From positions 1-64,000 of IMG/VR virus record IMGVR_UViG_3300020463_001984: 64,000 nt of DNA; one strand, written 5' to 3'. A program made the position numbers and the translations under genes. The notes beneath the pieces are model-generated. The model did not search any database, was not told the DNA's origin, and worked only from the letters and a program-made list of their open reading frames with translations. Source of the DNA: a virus. Shown one piece after another: positions 1,955-12,305 of the stretch; within the stretch, counting starts at the first letter, position 1, and each line of letters opens with the position of its first letter.

Positions 1955-4135
1955 ATGGCAGTACAAGTTGACATTCCGGGAGTTGGTAACGTAATAGCCA
2001 AAAATGCGGCGGAAGACAGTACTTTACAGGAAATCTTAAAAGCACTGAAAGGTCGCGGCGGCACTGGTGGCGGTGGATCCGGCGGTGGTGCTGGTGGTCC
2101 TGGCGGCGGAGCCGGTGGATTAGGCCCAAACATGAAGAAAGCCAACAAAGAAACTGGTGAATTCAGTAAAAGTATTGCAAACACAACAACTTTAGTTGAT
2201 GATTTTGGTGGCGGATTAAGAAAAGCAACCAAAGGATTATTAGGATTTGCCGGCGACTTGCTAGGATCAGCATACGATTTTGGAGAAACATTACTGTTCA
2301 CTGGTAACAGAATGAGTGATCTAGCAAGTGCTATACCGCTTGTAGGAGGACCTCTAGGATCTTTAGTTGGATTAGCAGAAGGATTGGTAGATAATTTTAG
2401 AAACTTATCAGAATCAGGTGCTGGATTTTCCAATAACATATTCAATATTGCTAGAGCGGCCGCTAACGCAGAAATGCCATTAGGAATGTTTGCTGAAACA
2501 GTTGCACAAAATTCACAACAATTATCAAGGCTAGGAGGCAGTGTAACAGAAGGTGCCAAACGTTTTGGTAGGATCAGTAAAAGTTTAAGAACCAGTGAAG
2601 AAAACTTCTTAGGAATGGGTTTTACTATGGAAGGTGTAAACGAAGGACTTATTGCGTACACCGAAGAGATGGCAAGAACAGGTAGACTACGTACAATGAG
2701 TGATGCACAACTTACACAAGGTGCAGGTGTCTACTTAATGGAAATTGATAAGTTAGCAAAAGTAACAGGTATGACACGTAAAGAGGCAGAAGCGGCTAGG
2801 GCCAGCCAGGCTGACGATGCCAGAATGAGAAGAATGATCAGCAAATTAGACACTGAGGGTCAAAACAACTTAAGGAACAGTCTAGCATTCTTGGATGCCA
2901 AAGTTCCTGGCTTATCAGATGCATTTAAGGACTTGTCAGACGGTGCGGCACAAACTGAAGAAGGTATGATGTTAATGGCAATGGGTGGTGATGAGTTTGT
3001 TAAACTTGCACAAGAAATGGCATCAGGTGAACTTGATCCTGCCGAACTTAACAACAGATTAATGGAACTTGCTCCACTTATCGAAAAGAATGTTGGAAAT
3101 ATGAGCGAAGCACAGTTACAAGCATTAGAACAGACTAATCCTGCATTATACAAAATTTTAAGTAGTAACTCAGACCTATTAGCATTGACTAAAAAATCCG
3201 GTGAAAAAATTGAAGAAGAACAAAAAGCATCAGACGGTGTAACAACATCATTAGCACAGGTAGAACAAAACCTTGCAACTATTAGAGGTAATTTATTTTC
3301 AGCATTTTTAGAAAGTGATATATTTAAAATGGCCGCTGATGCACTTGGAAATTTAATGCCTAAGACTGAAGACGTCAGTGCAATGATGGAAAAATTAAAA
3401 CCTCATGTAGAAGAAGTCATAAACAGTTTTACAGCATTTGTAAACGACTTTATGGCAGATCCTAAAGGAACGTTTGATAAGATTGTAAAAAATATAAAAA
3501 CTTATGTAGGCGATTTCTTCTTTGGTATGTTTGACGGATTAGGAACAAAAATTATCGCAGGTATTTTAACAGGACTGTTAGCACTTGCACTTGGAATATT
3601 CACAGGTCCATTCTTGGCAATTGGTGCAGGGTTGGCATTAGTATTTGGAATGGATAAGATTTTAGAATTAGGTAACGAATACATTTGGGAACCAATTAAA
3701 GGTATGTTTAGTTGGATGGGAGAATGGTTTGGAAGTCTTTGGGAATCAATTAAAGGTTTTGGTAGCAAACTTAATCCTTTAAATTGGTTTGGTGGAGATG
3801 ACGACAAACAAGAACAAAAAGTCTCAGAAGCCTATACACCAGATGCTCCAAGTATCAAGAAAACTGCGATGAAAGTGCCAGATAATGCTGAAGAAACAGC
3901 GGCCAAAGTATCAGATGATACTGTAACAGCGGCACTGGAGGCATCCAAAGAAGCAGAGAAAAAATCAAAAGAGCAGGCCAGTAAAGCATCGGCCGATGCA
4001 AGTAAGTCGGTAAATAGTACTGATGGCGGTGCAAGTGGAATGCAAGTAGCACTCTTACAAGAGCAAAATGAATTACTTCGTGCATTGCTGAGAACAACAA
4101 AAAGTAACACGTCGGATATGTATTCGAGTGCATAA
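1955..4135 (+). CDS. Probable tape measure protein (726 aa)
   Basis: Long Ala/Gly/Leu-rich helical protein with a hydrophobic segment (IIAGILTGLLALALGIFTGPFLAIGAGLALVFG) and W/F-periodic region; lies next to the hub/chaperone gene. Confidence 0.6.
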   Translation: MAVQVDIPGVGNVIAKNAAEDSTLQEILKALKGRGGTGGGGSGGGAGGPGGGAGGLGPNMKKANKETGEFSKSIANTTTLVDDFGGGLRKATKGLLGFAGDLLGSAYDFGETLLFTGNRMSDLASAIPLVGGPLGSLVGLAEGLVDNFRNLSESGAGFSNNIFNIARAAANAEMPLGMFAETVAQNSQQLSRLGGSVTEGAKRFGRISKSLRTSEENFLGMGFTMEGVNEGLIAYTEEMARTGRLRTMSDAQLTQGAGVYLMEIDKLAKVTGMTRKEAEAARASQADDARMRRMISKLDTEGQNNLRNSLAFLDAKVPGLSDAFKDLSDGAAQTEEGMMLMAMGGDEFVKLAQEMASGELDPAELNNRLMELAPLIEKNVGNMSEAQLQALEQTNPALYKILSSNSDLLALTKKSGEKIEEEQKASDGVTTSLAQVEQNLATIRGNLFSAFLESDIFKMAADALGNLMPKTEDVSAMMEKLKPHVEEVINSFTAFVNDFMADPKGTFDKIVKNIKTYVGDFFFGMFDGLGTKIIAGILTGLLALALGIFTGPFLAIGAGLALVFGMDKILELGNEYIWEPIKGMFSWMGEWFGSLWESIKGFGSKLNPLNWFGGDDDKQEQKVSEAYTPDAPSIKKTAMKVPDNAEETAAKVSDDTVTAALEASKEAEKKSKEQASKASADASKSVNSTDGGASGMQVALLQEQNELLRALLRTTKSNTSDMYSSA

Positions 4136-4144
4136 GGATTGTAG

Positions 4145-5881
4145 ATGAGTTGGAAAAGATATTTTACACCAGTTGAACAAGGAGACGGTGCAGGAACAAG
4201 TTATAGTCCAATTAATGGACGAGGCCAAGGGCCGGGACCTGCAAGATCAAATTATTCTTCATATCTACCAGATGTATATGTAGGTAGTCCAAACCGCGTT
4301 GAACGTTATGGACAATATAACGTTATGGATAACGACAGTGAAGTAAATGCGGCATTAGACATATTAGCAGAATTTTGTTCACAAGAGAACGATCAAAACA
4401 GAACTTCGTTTAAAATTAATTTTAAACAAAAAGCAACTAATTCAGAAATAACAGTATTACAAAAATACTTACAGCAATGGTGTAAATTAAATAACTTTGG
4501 AACTAAGATGTTCCGTATATTAAGAAACGTATTTAAGTATGGTGATGCTTTCTTTATTAGAGATCCAGAAACTAAAAAATGGTTCCATGTTGATCCAGCA
4601 AAAGTTTCACGTATAATTGTAAACGAATCAGAAGGTAAAAAACCTGAACAATATATAGTAAGAGATGTAAACCTTAATTTTAGAGAACAGGTTGCAACAA
4701 CACCATATACAACTAACGGCAACGTAACTGGAGGTGGCGATGGCTACTTAACAGGTGGTGTTAGAGGTATGGTTGGTAATGCACAATCACAAGCAGGCAG
4801 TAGATTTCAAACAGATCAAAGAGAGATTGCCGTTGATGCAGATCATATTGTACATTTAAGTTTAAGTGAAGGTTTAGATAACAATTACCCATTTGGTAAT
4901 TCATTACTTGAAAGTATTTTTAAAGTTTACAAACAAAAAGAATTATTAGAAGATGCAATTATTATTTACAGAACACAAAGAGCACCAGAACGTAGAGTGT
5001 TTTATATTGATGTAGGTAATATGCCATCACACCTTGCTATGCAGTTCGTTGAACGTGTAAAAACAGAAATACACCAAAGACGTATTCCAAGTGCATCAGG
5101 TGGATCTACAAACGTAATTGATAGTGCATACAATCCGTTATCAACAAACGAAGATTACTTCTTTCCGCAAACAGCAGAAGGACGTGGATCTAAAGTTGAA
5201 ACATTACCAGGTGGTACTAACTTAGGTGAGATTGATGATCTTAAATACTTTACTAATAAACTAATTAGAGGTTTACGTATTCCAAGTTCATACTTACCAA
5301 GTGCCGCACAAGATGAAGGACAAAGTCAATTCAATGATGGTAGAGTAGGTACTGCATATATCCAAGAATTAAGATTCAACAAGTATTGCGAACGTTTACA
5401 AAATCTAGTTACAGAAGAATTTGATCAAGAGTTTAAACGTTACTTGATGGAAAAAGGTGCAAACGTAGACTTTGCTATGTTTGATTTAGAATTTCAAACT
5501 CCTCAAAACTTTGCAAGTTACAGACAAAGTGAATTAGACAATCAACGTATTGGTACATTTACACAGATACAGGCTATTCCATTTGTAAGTAATAGATATG
5601 CAATGAAACGTTTCTTAGGAATGTCAGCAGAAGAGATTGCTGAGAATGAACGTTACTGGAAAGAAGAGAACGATGAAAACTTATCTGCTCCTCCAACTGA
5701 TGCCGCAGGTGAAATGCGTGGCGTTGGTGTAAGTGGTGCAGGCATTACTGCCGACTTAGGTGGTACAGAAGATGTTGACCCAGAAGCAGAGCCAGATCCG
5801 GTAGCAGGCGGTGAAGCGACTCCACCGGATACAGCGACAGGTACACCAGTAGGTGGCGCTGGCACTACTCCACAGCAATAA
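4145..5881 (+). CDS. gp20: Portal protein (T4 gp20 family)
   Basis: LLEDAIIIYRTQRAPERRVFYIDVGNMP, EDYFFP..AEGRGSKVETLPGG.NLGEIDD..YF..KL..GLRIPSS. Confidence 0.95.
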   Translation: MSWKRYFTPVEQGDGAGTSYSPINGRGQGPGPARSNYSSYLPDVYVGSPNRVERYGQYNVMDNDSEVNAALDILAEFCSQENDQNRTSFKINFKQKATNSEITVLQKYLQQWCKLNNFGTKMFRILRNVFKYGDAFFIRDPETKKWFHVDPAKVSRIIVNESEGKKPEQYIVRDVNLNFREQVATTPYTTNGNVTGGGDGYLTGGVRGMVGNAQSQAGSRFQTDQREIAVDADHIVHLSLSEGLDNNYPFGNSLLESIFKVYKQKELLEDAIIIYRTQRAPERRVFYIDVGNMPSHLAMQFVERVKTEIHQRRIPSASGGSTNVIDSAYNPLSTNEDYFFPQTAEGRGSKVETLPGGTNLGEIDDLKYFTNKLIRGLRIPSSYLPSAAQDEGQSQFNDGRVGTAYIQELRFNKYCERLQNLVTEEFDQEFKRYLMEKGANVDFAMFDLEFQTPQNFASYRQSELDNQRIGTFTQIQAIPFVSNRYAMKRFLGMSAEEIAENERYWKEENDENLSAPPTDAAGEMRGVGVSGAGITADLGGTEDVDPEAEPDPVAGGEATPPDTATGTPVGGAGTTPQQ

Positions 5882-9613: not shown

Positions 9614-10777
9614 ATGTCAGAACTTTTAGAAAGTAAATGGCAGGATACAAAAGTTGCGTTGCTCGAAGGCCTAACAGGCAATAAGAAGTCTGTGATGTCC
9701 GCTACTCTAGAAAATACTAGAAAGTATTTGGCAGAGGCGGCTACTGCAGGTGCCTCTAGCGCCGGTAACGTTGCTACTCTTAACAGAGTTATCCTACCAG
9801 TAATTAGACGTGTTATGCCAACGGTTATCGCTAATGAAATCGTAGGTGTACAACCAATGACTGGTCCAGTTGGACAAATCCACACACTAAGAGTAAGATA
9901 TGCAGACTCGTTTGATGACGTAACAGCAGGCGAAGAAGCACTATCACCTTTCCAAATTGGTTTAGGTTACTCAGGTGGCGGATCTACTGATAAAGCAGAT
10001 GCAACAGCAAACTTAGAAGGTATTGCTGGTAAGCGTCTAAGCATTCAGATCTTGAAACAAACAGTTGAAGCGAAAACTCGTAAATTGAGTGCTCGTTGGA
10101 CTTTTGAAGCGGCTCAGGATGCTCAAGCACAGCAAGGTATCGATATCGAAGCAGAAATTATGGCGGCATTAGCCCAAGAAATTACTGCTGAAATCGACCA
10201 AGAAGTTCTTAATTCTTTAAGAACACTTGCTGGTTCGGCTGAATCAGACGTTCAATACGATCAAAACGCAGTATCAGGTACAGCAACATTCGTGGGTGAT
10301 GAACACGCGGCGTTGGCTGTTATGATAAACAGAGCGGCAAACAAAATTGCACAACGTACAAGACGTGGTGCTGGTAACTTTGCAGTGGTATCACCGCATA
10401 CGTTAACAGTTCTTCAGTCTGCAACAACTTCAGCGTTCGCAAGAACAACTGAAGGTACGTTCGAAGCACCAACTAATACTAAATTAGTAGGTACTTTAAA
10501 TGGTGCAATGAAAGTGTACGTTGATGCTTACGCAAGTGACTCAACTGACGTACTTGTAGGTTACAAAGGTACTTCAGAAGCAGATGCGGCGGCGTTCTAC
10601 TGTCCATACATTCCATTAATGTCAAGTGGCGTTGTACTTGACCCATCATCTTTCGAACCAGTTGTGTCTTTCATGACTAGATACGGATATGTTGAGTTAA
10701 ACAACACTGCTTCTTCATTAGGTAATGCGGCAGACTACCTAGCAAGAGTTAGTGTAGCAAACGTAACATTCTCATAA
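9614..10777 (+). CDS. gp23: Major capsid protein (T4 gp23 family)
   Basis: VGVQPMTGPVGQI..LR, VEAKTRKLSARWTFEAAQD, EITAEID, AFYCPYIPL, FMTRYG. Confidence 0.97.
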   Translation: MSELLESKWQDTKVALLEGLTGNKKSVMSATLENTRKYLAEAATAGASSAGNVATLNRVILPVIRRVMPTVIANEIVGVQPMTGPVGQIHTLRVRYADSFDDVTAGEEALSPFQIGLGYSGGGSTDKADATANLEGIAGKRLSIQILKQTVEAKTRKLSARWTFEAAQDAQAQQGIDIEAEIMAALAQEITAEIDQEVLNSLRTLAGSAESDVQYDQNAVSGTATFVGDEHAALAVMINRAANKIAQRTRRGAGNFAVVSPHTLTVLQSATTSAFARTTEGTFEAPTNTKLVGTLNGAMKVYVDAYASDSTDVLVGYKGTSEADAAAFYCPYIPLMSSGVVLDPSSFEPVVSFMTRYGYVELNNTASSLGNAADYLARVSVANVTFS

Positions 10778-10794: not shown

Positions 10795-10823
10795 AAAAGG
10801 GCGGCTTATGTCGCCCTTTTTTT
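10795..10823 (+). terminator. Rho-independent terminator after gp23
   Basis: AAAAGGGCGGC-TTAT-GTCGCCCTTTTTTT. Confidence 0.9.
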
Positions 10824-10872
10824 ATGACTGAATCAAAATATACATTTTGGTAAACCTTTTTCACTTTTCTGG

Positions 10873-10901
10873 TTGCTTTTTATTTCAAACAATGTTATAT
10901 T
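10873..10901 (+). promoter_or_regulatory. Sigma70-type promoter for the downstream ncRNA
   Basis: TTGCTT, 17-nt spacer, TATATT with extended -10 TG. Predicted +1 near 10908 coincides with the 5' end of the closing helix. Confidence 0.65.
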
Positions 10902-10907
10902 AATATT

Positions 10908-11137
10908 AACTTTAACACAAACTAAGAGAGTTATTAACTCTTAGCACTTGTGGCAGAATAAGGCTTCGGCAGGGGCCTAATGCATACTAAAGTCTTTTAC
11001 GCGGCCAAGTGGCTAGGTTTAGGCGGAGGTAGTTGGAAGTAGGTATCATATCTAAACCTTGCAAAATTCAGATGTGATCTGCTTATCGAAAGTTGGAGGT
11101 GAGTTCACAGCAAGGCCTCCCAAGTAGTGTTTAAGTT
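10908..11137 (+). ncRNA. Unidentified ~230-nt structured non-coding RNA
   Basis: GC-enriched, no ORF in the track. Closing helix AACTTTAACAC/GTGTTTAAGTT encloses at least five helices (see findings). Confidence 0.7.
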
Positions 11138-11160
11138 ATTTTCCCCAGATAAATATATGT

Positions 11161-11583
11161 ATGAAAGACGAATACACATCGGCCTTTCACGACATTGTCA
11201 AGGAGGCATCCGAGACTACAGGTTATCAATTACCTTTAGAGGTTGAGTCCTATGTAGTAATGCTCCTTGCTGATAAAATAGACCAACCAAACTTTTTACC
11301 CAAAACAACATTTGCTCAAGAACTATTCGGAATCCAAAATAATCGTTTGAAAGGAAAAGAACTAGGAGATAGTGCTCTATTCCTTACAGGTGTATTCCCC
11401 GAATATTGCGAAAATAAGGTGTCTGTACGTTACTTTGTAGAGATAGGTAGTACAAGTTATACCCAGTGCAGTAAACACCTACACAGCGACCTCTTTGAAG
11501 CATTAAGCGGTAATTTTAACTTCATTCGTAAGTTCATTAATGTAAGTGTCCGCAAGCCTAATCCATTATTACATATTGGATAA
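11161..11583 (+). CDS. Hypothetical protein resembling a conserved bacterial family (140 aa)
   Basis: E.YVV.LL, LGD.ALF.TG.FPE, Y..IG...Y pattern; late promoter 5 nt upstream. Confidence 0.65.
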   Translation: MKDEYTSAFHDIVKEASETTGYQLPLEVESYVVMLLADKIDQPNFLPKTTFAQELFGIQNNRLKGKELGDSALFLTGVFPEYCENKVSVRYFVEIGSTSYTQCSKHLHSDLFEALSGNFNFIRKFINVSVRKPNPLLHIG

Positions 11584-11597
11584 ATACTTTTGTCATG

Positions 11598-11670
11598 AGA
11601 GTGTGCCACATAATTTTGGTGGACTTATGGGGACAAAACCCCGTAGCAGATAGAACCTGCATCGGACTCT
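11598..11670 (+). promoter_or_regulatory. Four-way-junction structured 5' leader
   Basis: AGAGT/ACTCT closes CCAC/GTGG, TATGGGG/CCCCGTA and GCAG/CTGC; lies between late promoter (11580) and SD. Confidence 0.55.
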
Positions 11671-11687
11671 AAAAAAGGAGAAACAAA

Positions 11688-12305
11688 ATGGGAAGACCAA
11701 TTAATAAAAAACATATAGGTGATGGAGCAGGTAAAATCCAAGTAACTGCGGTTAAGTTCGCGGCAGGCAACGAAATTACTACTGAGTCACATATTATAAA
11801 TCAAAGATCAGCAAACAAATTTACAGTTACTGATGGAAGTAAAACAGAAGTTGTTACACTTGTAAACAAATCAATTGGCGGCTTAGGCGCTAGTGAATTT
11901 TGTATTAACGTTACAGACAGTGACGGTGTTACAAAACAAATTACAAAAATGTACAACAGAAAAATGCAACTTGAAGGCGCGACTAGACACAAATGGTCAC
12001 GTAACTCAGCAGGTGCCTCAACTGCGATTGAAAAAACAATCACAGGAGCGACAGCGGCAGATCCAGTTGTAGTTACATCAGCCGGTCATGGTTTTAGTAA
12101 CGGCGACAAGATCTCTATCAGAGGTGTTGTTGGTATGGTTGAATTAAATGTAGAAACTGCATTTACATTAGCCAACGTAGCAACTAATACATTTGAGTTA
12201 TCAGGTGTTGACGGTTCAGGTTACACTGCTTATACATCAGGCGGTGTTGCAACTAAGGCGGCGGCAACTAGTGGAAGTATTGTTGTAGACGCACAGGCGT
12301 CATAA
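11688..12305 (+). CDS. Virion structural protein with E1-FCCH-like beta domain (205 aa)
   Basis: ITGATAADPVVVTSAGHGFSNGDKISIRGVVGMVELN motif; strong SD. Confidence 0.65.
   Translation: MGRPINKKHIGDGAGKIQVTAVKFAAGNEITTESHIINQRSANKFTVTDGSKTEVVTLVNKSIGGLGASEFCINVTDSDGVTKQITKMYNRKMQLEGATRHKWSRNSAGASTAIEKTITGATAADPVVVTSAGHGFSNGDKISIRGVVGMVELNVETAFTLANVATNTFELSGVDGSGYTAYTSGGVATKAAATSGSIVVDAQAS

What the first reader, a model, noticed from the sequence alone, without database searches (positions are those of the whole stretch)
10873..11137. Unannotated ~230-nt multi-helix ncRNA with its own promoter, directly after the major capsid gene
Seen: after the gp23 terminator lies TTGCTT-17-(TG)TATATT. Its predicted +1 (~10908) is the first base of a closing helix AACTTTAACAC/GTGTTTAAGTT (10908-18/11127-37). 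Inside are back-to-back helices: CTAAGAG/CTCTTAG (10922-44); CACTTG..GGC/GCCAAGTG (10945-11011), enclosing AGGCTTC-GGCA-GGGGCCT; GCTAGGTTTAGG/TCTAAACCTTGC (11012-62); CAGAT/ATCTG (11069-81); and TTGGAGG/CCTCCCAA (11093-11123). The region is GC-richer than its flanks, uses G:U pairs and has no ORF in the track. I cannot match it to tRNA, tmRNA, RNase P, SRP or 6S by eye. Inference: a stand-alone structured phage RNA made by host sigma70 (early), possibly a protein sponge, anti-defence decoy or assembly RNA.
Basis: partly seen in the sequence, partly recalled or inferred. Interest (0 to 1): 0.85.

Follow-up and report, generated by a model that had tools for sequence, protein, structure and literature searches.

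The report
Remodelled manA-type phage RNA gene
Behind the capsid gene of an uncultured marine giant phage sits a real, separately promoted gene for a folded RNA of about 225 bases; it is a rebuilt relative of the known 'manA' phage RNA, which forms RNA-only cages in the test tube and has no known job, and the standard RNA catalogue misses it.

Summary
The flagged stretch (10908-11137, + strand) is a real structured RNA. It is 95% identical between phages whose capsid genes are 82% identical and whose downstream genes are 66% identical. It belongs to a family of at least 74 distinct sequences in marine phage and metagenome contigs, including cultured Pelagibacter phage HTVC008M. Six helices are 91-100% paired, with compensatory changes in five of them.

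Most copies carry a sigma70-type promoter at a fixed distance. Small metatranscriptome contigs from three studies lie wholly inside the element.

Rfam gives no hit on the window. Even so, the RNA shares three things with manA RNA (RF01745): the 5' module (hairpin, closing stem, GUGGCAGAAUAA-hairpin-UAAUGCA), the 3' module, and the four-arm layout. Related phages hold an Rfam-detectable manA RNA in the same slot behind a near-identical promoter. The P3 and P4 arms are rebuilt.

It is not a leader for the next gene. That gene has its own TAAATA-N5-ATG late-type promoter, and elsewhere the RNA faces convergent genes or is flipped.

The function is unknown. The best guess is a trans-acting stable RNA that may self-associate as manA does.

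This scan has already reported the same subfamily on other DNA (e1-5406703, e1-5406709, e1-5524877).

The parts
10796..10826 (+). Intrinsic terminator of the major capsid gene (GC hairpin followed by a T run). It marks the upstream border of the RNA cassette.
   Evidence: Sequence read. The same terminator directly abuts the next gene in relatives that lack the cassette (L097).
10873..10901 (+). Sigma70-type promoter: -35 TTGCTT (10873-78), 17-nt spacer, extended -10 TG-n-TATATT (10893-901). The predicted start is about 10908.
   Evidence: It matches 8 of 12 consensus positions and so fell below the threshold of the simple scan. 41 of 74 homologues have TTGAC(A/T)-16/17-TATAxx at the same distance from P0. 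A near-identical promoter region drives a manA-type RNA detected by Rfam below its cut-off in L011 and L019.
10908..11137 (+). The RNA itself (about 225-230 nt), a remodelled manA-type RNA. The conserved block runs from 10908 to about 11131.
   Evidence: It is 95.1% identical to L006, against 81.8% for the capsid gene and 65.7% for the downstream gene. Covariance model R1 scores it at 255.6 bits. RNA-library contigs cover 10918-11130, 10918-11124 and 10924-11117.
10914..10918 (+). P0 5' strand AACAC. It pairs with GUGUU 11127-11131 and joins the two ends of the RNA.
   Evidence: Helix 1: 91.9% paired, and 4 of 5 pairs have changes on both sides (AU/UA/CG at the middle pair).
10922..10944 (+). 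P1 hairpin: CUAAGAG / CUCUUAG with a 9-nt loop, AGUUAUUAA.
   Evidence: Helix 2: 94% paired, 6 of 7 pairs compensated. Loop variants are listed.
10946..10950 (+). Pc 5' strand ACUUG. It pairs with CAAGU 11121-11125 and is the closing stem of the four-arm junction (the outermost stem enclosing the junction in the Rfam manA model).
   Evidence: Helix 3: 94.1% paired, 3 of 5 pairs compensated. In the Rfam manA alignment of relative L171 the same strands are placed in the model's closing stem.
10950..10984 (+). P2 arm: the conserved GUGGCAGAAUAA, the P2b hairpin (10961-66/10973-78), UAAUGCA, and the short P2a (GC 10953-54 with GC 10982-83).
   Evidence: P2b is 100% paired and 3 of its pairs are compensated. 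The same module is present in bona fide manA RNAs scoring 106-110 bits.
10987..11022 (+). P3 arm: CUAAA 10987-91 pairs with UUUAG 11018-22 and encloses hairpin P3a (GGCC 11003-06 / GGCU 11011-14).
   Evidence: P3a is 100% paired with 3 pairs compensated. P3 is paired in 60 of 60 sister-subgroup sequences, with CG/UA/GC/AU swaps. In the window's own subgroup it is 15 of 15 paired, with wobble changes only.
11025..11041 (+). Conserved purine-rich junction 17-mer, GGAGGUAGUUGGAAGUA (GGARGUGGUUGKRAGUA across the family). It carries the U(G/A)GUU motif that recalls the GUGGUG loop of manA.
   Evidence: Alignments.
11033..11089 (+). P4 arm (provisional in this subgroup): UUGG 11033-36 with UCGA 11086-89, hairpin AGGUA/UAUCU (11041-45/11049-53), and hairpin CAGAU/AUCUG (11069-73/11077-81).
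   Evidence: All pairs are compatible in 15 subgroup sequences, with one-sided changes only. The sister subgroup has a nested P4 arm with one compensated pair and a variable apical hairpin.
11095..11120 (+). P5 hairpin: GGAGG 11095-99 with CCUCC 11116-20.
   Evidence: Helix 9: 93.5% paired, 2 pairs compensated. The sister subgroup reads GUGGG/CCCAC, which is the Rfam manA consensus for this hairpin.
11121..11131 (+). The 3' strands of Pc (CAAGU 11121-25) and P0 (GUGUU 11127-31).
11150..11163 (+). TAAATA-N5-ATG: a late-type promoter motif placed directly before the start codon of the 140-aa ORF (11161-11583). It lies outside the RNA and shows that the next gene has its own start signal.
   Evidence: TAAATA lies within 60 nt upstream of 18 of 48 ORFs, against about 1.3 expected. 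The same TAAATA-N5-ATG is present in L097, which lacks the RNA cassette.

Best explanation
Positions 10908-11137 (+ strand) encode a free-standing, stable, folded RNA of an uncultured marine giant phage, transcribed from its own sigma70-type promoter. It is a remodelled member of the manA RNA superfamily. A terminal helix (P0) joins its 5' and 3' ends. A hairpin (P1) precedes a closing stem (Pc) that holds four arms (P2-P5). P1, Pc, P2 and P5 are homologous to manA, while the P3 and P4 arms are rebuilt.

Shown here: the RNA is under strong purifying selection, has a covariation-supported fold, forms its own transcription unit, and shares this architecture with manA.

Inferred: it acts in trans as an RNA particle rather than as a switch for the neighbouring gene. 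Like canonical manA RNAs, which form kissing-loop pentamers, decamers and a 60-mer cage in vitro, it may associate with copies of itself. What it does for the phage is unknown.
For: Selection:
- Against L006, the RNA is 95.1% identical, the capsid gene 81.8%, the spacer 79.2% and the downstream gene 65.7%.

Family size:
- A specific pattern found 35 IMG/VR contigs and 111 metagenome contigs.
- These give 77 unique full-length copies. 79 hits to model R1 fall between 108 and 264 bits.
- Cultured Pelagibacter phage HTVC008M has a copy at 86.7 bits.

Fold:
- On 74 distinct sequences, 85.8% of cells are paired against 71.7% in shuffles, and 27 pairs change on both sides. No shuffle in 500 reached the observed paired share, number of compensated pairs or covariation score (5 of 500 matched the count of further pair types), and slid controls stay at or below 48%.
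- The four-arm model on 60 sister-subgroup sequences is 91.9% paired, with 28 of 52 pairs compensated.
- Invariant U-G pairs sit on the + strand only, in P2b and P3a.

Link to manA:
- The same slot in L096, L019 and L011 holds an RNA that Rfam scores as manA at 45-47 bits, E 1e-9 to 1e-11.
- The promoter region is shared with L011 and L019.
- Family members L171 and L348 give full-length weak manA hits, at 24.4 and 21.9 bits. In the L171 alignment P1, the closing stem, P2 and P5 align and the centre does not; the L348 alignment was not printed.
- Bona fide manA RNAs (106-110 bits) carry the identical GUGGCAGAAYAA...UAAUGCA module.

Own transcription unit:
- Promoters sit at a fixed distance.
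- The cassette is an insertion/deletion between L096 and L097.
- Terminators follow the RNA in L096, L019 and L039. Terminator-like hairpins follow 24 sister-subgroup copies, about 20 of them strong.
- The first downstream ORF is convergent in 25 of 63 cases, and the orientation is flipped between L121 and L130.
- The 140-aa ORF has its own TAAATA-N5-ATG.

Expression (a weak hint only, because these are assembled contigs):
- RNA-library contigs of 196-213 nt from three studies lie wholly inside the element, at 100% identity and with no loose ends.

Self-assembly of manA:
- bioRxiv 10.64898/2026.07.01.735769.
Against: - Rfam's manA model does not hit the window's own RNA even at E<=10 in a 286-nt search.
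- The arms that carry the published kissing loops (L5-L7', and the long P4 hairpin) are the very parts that are rebuilt. Self-assembly therefore cannot simply be transferred to this RNA.
- I found no loop-loop covariation that proves contact between molecules. The UGGU/ACCA complementarity is kept in the sister subgroup, but the ACCA partner is missing in the window's subgroup, and the window itself reads UAGU.
- No intrinsic terminator lies between the RNA and the next gene in the window, so read-through into that gene is possible.
- One oligo-dT library contig crosses the promoter region (10792-942).
- The comparative fold is much less stable by nearest-neighbour energy (-34.7 to -49.6 kcal/mol) than the minimum-free-energy fold (-66.2).
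Confidence: 0.6

Rival explanations
1. It is a cis-acting leader (riboswitch or attenuator) that controls the 140-aa ORF at 11161, as manA is catalogued in Rfam ('Cis-reg').
For: The ORF starts 24 nt after the RNA on the same strand, with no terminator between them. 24 of 63 family copies have a co-directional ORF within 60 nt. Weinberg et al. 2010 described manA RNAs as commonly lying in 5' UTRs.
Against: - The ORF has its own TAAATA-N5-ATG late-type promoter, and keeps it in relatives that lack the RNA.
- The downstream genes are unrelated across copies. Many are convergent or more than 100 nt away, and the orientation flips between related phages.
- Cassettes in relatives end in a free-standing terminator that does not overlap the fold.
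- The RNA is far more conserved than the ORF it would control.
Confidence: 0.1
2. It is a monomeric protein-binding RNA: a decoy or sponge for a host or phage protein, for example an RNA-binding regulator, a nuclease or a defence sensor. Self-assembly would play no part.
For: It is a stand-alone, strongly structured RNA under a host-type promoter. It has invariant single-stranded motifs, namely the 17-mer and UAAUGCA. The family is widespread in unrelated marine phages.
Against: No partner protein gene travels with it; its neighbours differ between phage groups. Its closest relatives are shown to self-assemble without protein.
Confidence: 0.2
3. It is a virion- or assembly-associated RNA, for example a five-fold ring at capsid vertices or the packaging motor, by analogy with the phi29 packaging RNA.
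For: In giant-phage relatives the gene sits immediately behind the major capsid gene. Canonical manA RNAs are built from kissing-loop pentamers. The analogy with phi29 pRNA rests on my own knowledge.
Against: The same RNA family lies in replication modules of other phages, next to the SSB gene in HTVC008M and L241 and near DNA polymerase in L130. The promoter is host-type, not the TAAATA late type used by structural genes. Close relatives lack the cassette altogether (L097-L100, L062).
Confidence: 0.05
4. It is not a functional RNA but a conserved DNA element (a protein-binding site or recombination site), or a chance fold.
For: The folding z-score is only -1.86, and is similar on the other strand. 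P1 is a near-perfect inverted repeat just downstream of a promoter.
Against: Compensatory changes occur in eight helices across 60-74 sequences. Strand-specific G-U pairs are kept. RNA-library contigs are confined to the element.
Confidence: 0.02

Closest known systems
manA RNA motif (Rfam RF01745; Weinberg et al. 2010, PMC2864571; Rfam update PMC7779021; cryo-EM preprint bioRxiv 10.64898/2026.07.01.735769)
   Same: - Both are ~190-230-nt RNAs of marine phages.
- Both have a P1 hairpin followed by a closing stem around four arms.
- The GUG-C-GAAUAA / hairpin / UAA-GC module is nearly identical.
- P5 (GUGGG/CCCAC in the sister subgroup) is followed by the 3' closing strand.
- Both carry a U(G/A)GUU motif.
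- In related giant phages the two types occupy the same genomic slot behind the same promoter.
   Different: - The window RNA fails the Rfam model: no hit, while relatives score 22-24 bits against a cut-off of 55.2.
- The P3 arm has one hairpin where manA has three hairpins with GUGGUG and ACCA loops.
- The long P4 hairpin is replaced.
- An extra terminal helix, P0, is clear.
- Rfam lists manA as cis-regulatory, but here the RNA is a free-standing gene.
- Self-assembly has been shown only for canonical manA.
ROOL, GOLLD and raiA: large bacterial and phage RNAs reported to form RNA-only multimers (from my own knowledge)
   Same: They are ornate non-coding RNAs, some of them phage-borne, of unknown function and with possible homo-oligomeric quaternary structure.
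   Different: They are much larger (roughly 200-800 nt), share no sequence or secondary-structure module with this RNA, and gave no Rfam hit here.
phi29 packaging RNA (pRNA) (from my own knowledge)
   Same: It is a phage-encoded RNA of about 170 nt, made from its own promoter, that forms rings through inter-molecular loop-loop pairing.
   Different: There is no sequence or fold similarity. pRNA is tied to a phi29-type packaging motor, whereas this family occurs in T4-like, giant and ~60-kb phages and in replication-gene neighbourhoods.
Orphan riboswitch candidates of marine phages (wcaG, glnA/glutamine riboswitch, freshwater-2)
   Same: They share the same ecological niche and even the same intergenic 'RNA island': glnA, manA and freshwater-2 lie in a row behind the capsid gene in L011 and L039, and freshwater-2 lies at 11606-11690 in the window.
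   Different: Those motifs are short (50-100 nt) and directly abut a start codon or expression platform. This RNA is a closed, 225-nt, four-arm fold with its own promoter.

Membership tests
manA RNA (RF01745) | Scores at or above the Rfam gathering cut-off (55.2 bits) with the curated covariance model | tested here: not met
   There is no manA hit on the window at the gathering threshold or at E<=10. Family members L171 and L348 reach 24.4 and 21.9 bits. RNAs in the same slot of L096, L019 and L011 reach 45-47 bits.
manA RNA (RF01745) | A 5' hairpin (P1) followed by a closing stem that encloses the remaining helices | tested here: met
   P1 is 94% paired and the closing stem Pc 94% paired, both with compensatory changes. 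Rfam aligns the same strands of L171 to its P1 and closing stem.
manA RNA (RF01745) | Conserved GUGaCUGAAUAA - hairpin - UAAgG module (P2 arm) | tested here: met
   The window reads GUGGCAGAAUAA, then the hairpin 10961-78, then UAAUGC. The identical module occurs in five RNAs that score 106-110 bits as manA.
manA RNA (RF01745) | P3 arm: a stem closing three hairpins, two of them with GUGGUG and ACCA loops | tested here: not met
   Here P3 closes a single 4-bp hairpin. A U(G/A)GUU motif survives in the junction after P3. ACCA survives only in the P5 loop of the sister subgroup. In the Rfam alignment of L171 these model positions are deleted or unaligned.
manA RNA (RF01745) | Long P4 hairpin (7 + 4 bp) with a conserved UaCUguA loop | tested here: not met
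   It is replaced by a different P4 arm. The sister subgroup has a 2-bp and a 4-bp stem plus a variable hairpin. The window's subgroup has UUGG/UCGA with two short hairpins, which is provisional.
manA RNA (RF01745) | 3' hairpin P5 (GugGG...CCcaC) directly followed by the 3' strand of the closing stem | tested here: met
   The window has GGAGG/CCUCC followed by CAAGU. The sister subgroup has GUGGG/CCCAC.
manA RNA (RF01745) | Forms discrete homo-oligomers (pentamer-based decamers or a 60-mer) through kissing loops in vitro | not testable with these tools
   This is known only for canonical manA. Here there are only candidate self-complementary loops.
Riboswitch / cis-regulatory leader | Consistently placed in the 5' UTR of functionally related genes, with an expression platform that overlaps the aptamer | tested here: not met
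   The downstream genes are unrelated, often convergent or distant. Terminators, where present, are separate hairpins 37-111 nt downstream. The next gene has its own promoter.

The most novel reading that the evidence does not exclude
manA-type RNAs, this remodelled subfamily included, may be phage-made self-assembling RNA particles (rings or cages built from five-fold units) that work in trans during infection. Swapping whole arms (P3 and P4) would re-programme which copies assemble together, and into what. The subfamily-specific self-complementary P1 loops and the covarying pair that cannot nest with P3a would then be contacts between molecules.
Probability: 0.15. Interest if true: 0.85.

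Novelty: new variant of a known kind. Interest (0 to 1): 0.45.

Why it matters
manA is one of the oldest orphan 'riboswitch candidates'. A 2026 preprint shows that it builds RNA-only cages, but nobody knows what it does in a cell.

This locus adds three things:
- A large sister subfamily, absent from Rfam, that keeps the core and replaces two arms. This gives a natural domain-swap series for asking which parts drive folding and which drive assembly.
- Genomic evidence that these RNAs are free-standing genes rather than gene leaders: their own promoter, cassette gain and loss, flipped orientation, and a neighbouring gene with its own promoter.
- A cultured host-phage pair (Pelagibacter phage HTVC008M on HTCC1062) that carries the variant, so the function could be tested at the bench.

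Tried and rejected
- Rfam on the element at permissive thresholds gave only noise, such as terminator-like sRNA matches and Giardia U6.
- ARAGORN found no tRNA or tmRNA.
- blastn of the element against 50,697 phage records found nothing. The own-genome search found only the element itself.
- RNAalifold on a MAFFT alignment recovered only part of the fold and proposed a hairpin (AAA/UUU) that a partial relative (L155) breaks.
- An automatic search for the terminal helix picked chance pairs and was replaced by anchoring by hand.
- My first terminator scan was too strict and missed real terminators. It was redone.
It was corrected.
- An all-against-all covariation scan was dominated by the split between the two subgroups and yielded only one extra credible pair.
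- I looked for compensatory change between the UGGU motif and ACCA loops as a sign of kissing contacts. I found only invariance, one wobble-compatible change and one unpaired variant.
- Contigs of RNA libraries do not cover the capsid gene or the 140-aa ORF in the four runs laid. Because these are assembled contigs, this says nothing about how strongly those genes are expressed.
- The first read-laying run failed and was repeated.
- A literature search for an HTVC008M infection transcriptome found none.

Full report
WHAT IS THERE

The window is a 64-kb piece of a 76-kb IMG/VR phage contig, estimated 21% complete. Its major capsid protein (9614-10777) is 67-71% identical to those of giant phages such as Vibrio phage 2.275.O, PA5oct and GAP32.

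After the capsid terminator (10796-10826) come, in order:
- TTGCTT (10873-78), a 17-nt spacer, TG (10893-94) and TATATT (10896-901);
- a 225-230-nt stretch without any + strand ORF;
- TAAATA-N5-ATG and a 140-aa ORF of no known family (11161-11583).

The stretch is richer in GC (0.46-0.50) than the 0.25-0.32 just upstream of it. ARAGORN and Rfam find nothing in it, even at E<=10 in a 286-nt search. Folding energy alone is not persuasive: z = -1.86, and -1.80 on the other strand.

IS IT MORE THAN CHANCE?

Yes. Cultured relatives have only 90-120 nt after the capsid gene, but a clade of uncultured relatives carries the element. Against L006:

| Region | Identity to L006 |
|---|---|
| RNA | 95.1% |
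| Capsid gene | 81.8% |
| Terminator-promoter spacer | 79.2% |
| 140-aa ORF | 65.7% |

Pattern scans, followed by a covariance model built here (R1), collected 35 IMG/VR contigs and 111 metagenome contigs. These give 77 unique full-length copies and 79 model hits of 108-264 bits. They fall into two subgroups:
- the window's own subgroup (15 distinct sequences);
- a sister subgroup (59 distinct sequences). It includes GenBank phage 023Pt_psg01 and the cultured Pelagibacter phage HTVC008M, where the RNA (86.7 bits) overlaps an annotated 56-aa 'hypothetical protein' just upstream of the SSB gene.

THE FOLD

On 74 distinct sequences, 85.8% of cells are paired against 71.7% in shuffles, and 27 pairs change on both sides. 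No shuffle in 500 reached the observed paired share, number of compensated pairs or covariation score, and slid controls stay at or below 48%. A refined four-arm model on 60 sister-subgroup sequences is 91.9% paired, with 28 of 52 pairs compensated.

The helices in window coordinates:

| Helix | 5' strand | 3' strand |
|---|---|---|
| P0 | 10914-18 | 11127-31 |
| P1 | 10922-28 | 10938-44 |
| Pc (closing stem) | 10946-50 | 11121-25 |
| P2a | 10953-54 | 10982-83 |
| P2b | 10961-66 | 10973-78 |
| P3 | 10987-91 | 11018-22 |
| P3a (inside P3) | 11003-06 | 11011-14 |
| P4c (provisional) | 11033-36 | 11086-89 |
| P4 hairpin a (provisional) | 11041-45 | 11049-53 |
| P4 hairpin b (provisional) | 11069-73 | 11077-81 |
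| P5 | 11095-99 | 11116-20 |

Invariant U-G and G-U pairs in P2b and P3a fix the strand.

- CACTTG/CAAGTG is not conserved and is replaced by Pc.
- The 12-bp GCTAGGTTTAGG/TCTAAACCTTGC helix exists only in the window's subgroup, and only wobble-compatible changes support it. It competes with P3, whose homologue in the sister subgroup is paired in 60 of 60 sequences with CG/UA/GC/AU swaps. I leave it unresolved.

The comparative fold is less stable by nearest-neighbour energy (-34.7 to -49.6 kcal/mol) than the MFE fold (-66.2). This is usual for junction-rich RNAs but is recorded as a caveat.

WHAT IT IS

In relatives L096, L019 and L011 the same slot (capsid terminator, promoter, RNA, then the homologue of the 140-aa ORF or of the fibre gene) holds an RNA that Rfam scores as manA (RF01745) at 45-47 bits, E 1e-9 to 1e-11. 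Further links to manA:
- The promoter region of L011 and L019 is nearly the same as the window's.
- L096 and L097 differ by exactly one cassette of promoter, manA and terminator.
- Family members L171 and L348 give weak full-length manA hits, at 24.4 and 21.9 bits. In the L171 alignment P1, the closing stem, P2 and P5 align and the central positions do not; the L348 alignment was not printed.
- Five RNAs that score 106-110 bits as manA carry the identical GUGGCAGAAYAA-hairpin-UAAUGCA module.
- The four-arm topology derived here (closing stem around P2, P3, P4 and P5) is that of the Rfam model.

So this is a remodelled manA relative. The core is conserved, the P3 arm is reduced from three hairpins to one, and the P4 arm is replaced. 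It fails the curated model and is absent from Rfam 15.

STAND-ALONE GENE OR LEADER?

The evidence favours a stand-alone gene:
- 41 of 74 copies have TTGAC(A/T)-16/17-TATAxx ending 6-13 nt before P0, and the window's subgroup has TTGCTT-17-TGnTATATT.
- The first downstream ORF is co-directional within 60 nt in 24 cases, convergent in 25, further away in 14, and beyond the contig end in 11.
- The neighbours range from capsid genes (giant phages), to SSB/UvsX (L241, HTVC008M), to family-A DNA polymerase and exonuclease modules (L130). The orientation is flipped between L121 and L130.
- About 20 sister-subgroup cassettes, and the manA-type cassettes in L096, L019 and L039, end in strong, separate terminators.
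- In the window there is no terminator. However, the 140-aa ORF has its own TAAATA-N5-ATG, which L097 keeps without the RNA. TAAATA lies upstream of 18 of 48 ORFs against about 1.3 expected, which marks it as the late-type promoter. The lead for this came from an earlier first-reader note, e1-6094726.

EXPRESSION

Sixteen RNA-library runs hold parts of the stretch. I laid four of them. Three of these, from three different studies, each give one small contig (196-213 nt) that lies wholly inside the element (10918-11130, 10918-11124, 10924-11117). The contigs are 100% identical and have no loose ends there. The fourth, an oligo-dT library, also has a 151-nt contig across the promoter. Because these are assembled contigs, this is only a weak hint of a discrete, abundant RNA.

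HOW IT MOST LIKELY WORKS

manA was described as an orphan riboswitch candidate (PMC2864571). A July 2026 preprint shows that canonical manA RNAs form kissing-loop pentamers, decamers and a 60-subunit icosahedral cage in vitro; it gives no biological role.

My best reading is a trans-acting stable RNA particle that may self-associate. Three hints point that way, and all are inference:
- The apical loop of P1 is a self-complementary hexamer in five sequence-distinct forms across subfamilies: UUGCAA, UUAUAA, UAAUUA, UGAUCA and GAUAUC. The window has the one-step intermediate UUAUUA.
- One pair, C11002 with G11009, covaries as CG/GC/UA in 75 of 75 sequences but cannot nest with P3a.
- UGGU/ACCA complementarity is retained in the sister subgroup.

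Against this, the arms that carry the published contacts are the ones replaced, and the window's subgroup lacks ACCA.

VERDICT

- The 'own promoter, stand-alone RNA' reading is supported.
- The 'no known family' reading is not.
- Novelty: a new variant of a known kind.

This scan has already reported the same subfamily on other DNA (e1-5406703, e1-5406709, e1-5524877), and canonical copies behind capsid genes (for example e1-5367335). I reached the manA link independently, before reading those notes.

Noticed in passing
window 11606-11690 (+): A freshwater-2 RNA motif (RF02980, 68.1 bits) ends in the Shine-Dalgarno sequence and start codon of ORF 11688-12305. That ORF has an E1_FCCH domain and resembles a PHROG major tail protein. 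The same motif precedes the homologous gene in L006, L019, L011, L096 and L039.
   Followed up: partly
window 11150-11163 and the whole window: TAAATA lies within 60 nt upstream of 18 of 48 ORFs, against about 1.3 expected. At five sites it sits exactly 5 nt before an ATG (one is the 140-aa ORF; I did not check that every one starts an ORF). This suggests a T4-like late promoter that gives leaderless or near-leaderless mRNAs.
   Followed up: partly
L011:3754-3803 and L039:3736-3782: In these relatives a glutamine riboswitch aptamer (RF01739) follows the capsid gene directly, then a manA-type RNA, then freshwater-2. The gap behind the capsid gene is an 'RNA island', and in PA5oct the same slot holds a homing endonuclease gene.
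   Followed up: no
L192:2180-2336 and 2408-2619; also L211, L157, L190: A further manA-like variant shares the GUGGCAGAAYAA...UAAUGCA module but is not detected by Rfam. In L192 it lies next to tRNA genes and a tmRNA gene (2816-3361), that is, inside a cluster of stable-RNA genes.
   Followed up: no
L193:2430-2760; L124:377-539; L205:6480-6614: More uncatalogued relatives with the same 5' module. L193 is about 330 nt long and also keeps the P3a-like hairpin and the GGUGGUUGGAAGUA junction motif.
   Followed up: no
L351 (Pelagibacter phage HTVC008M, NC_020484.1, about 5021-5226): The annotated 56-aa hypothetical protein gp008 (4993-5163) overlaps a clear member of this RNA family (86.7 bits) just upstream of the SSB gene. 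The ORF call is probably spurious.
   Followed up: partly
window 11002 and 11009 (alignment A5, columns 99 and 106): The nucleotide just 5' of hairpin P3a covaries perfectly (CG/GC/UA) with the third nucleotide of that hairpin's tetraloop. This cannot form together with P3a in one molecule. It points either to an alternative 3-bp hairpin or to a contact between molecules.
   Followed up: partly
Sister-subgroup loci such as L261, L270, L333, L343: Strong intrinsic terminators lie 60-110 nt downstream of the RNA, not directly after it. What the spacer encodes is unknown.
   Followed up: no
L121:6173-6397 (-) versus L130:8115-8335 (-): In phages with the same DNA polymerase / 212-aa gene pair, the RNA gene is co-directional with the polymerase in L121 and opposite to it in L130, L176 and L279. 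This looks like a small inverted block.
   Followed up: partly
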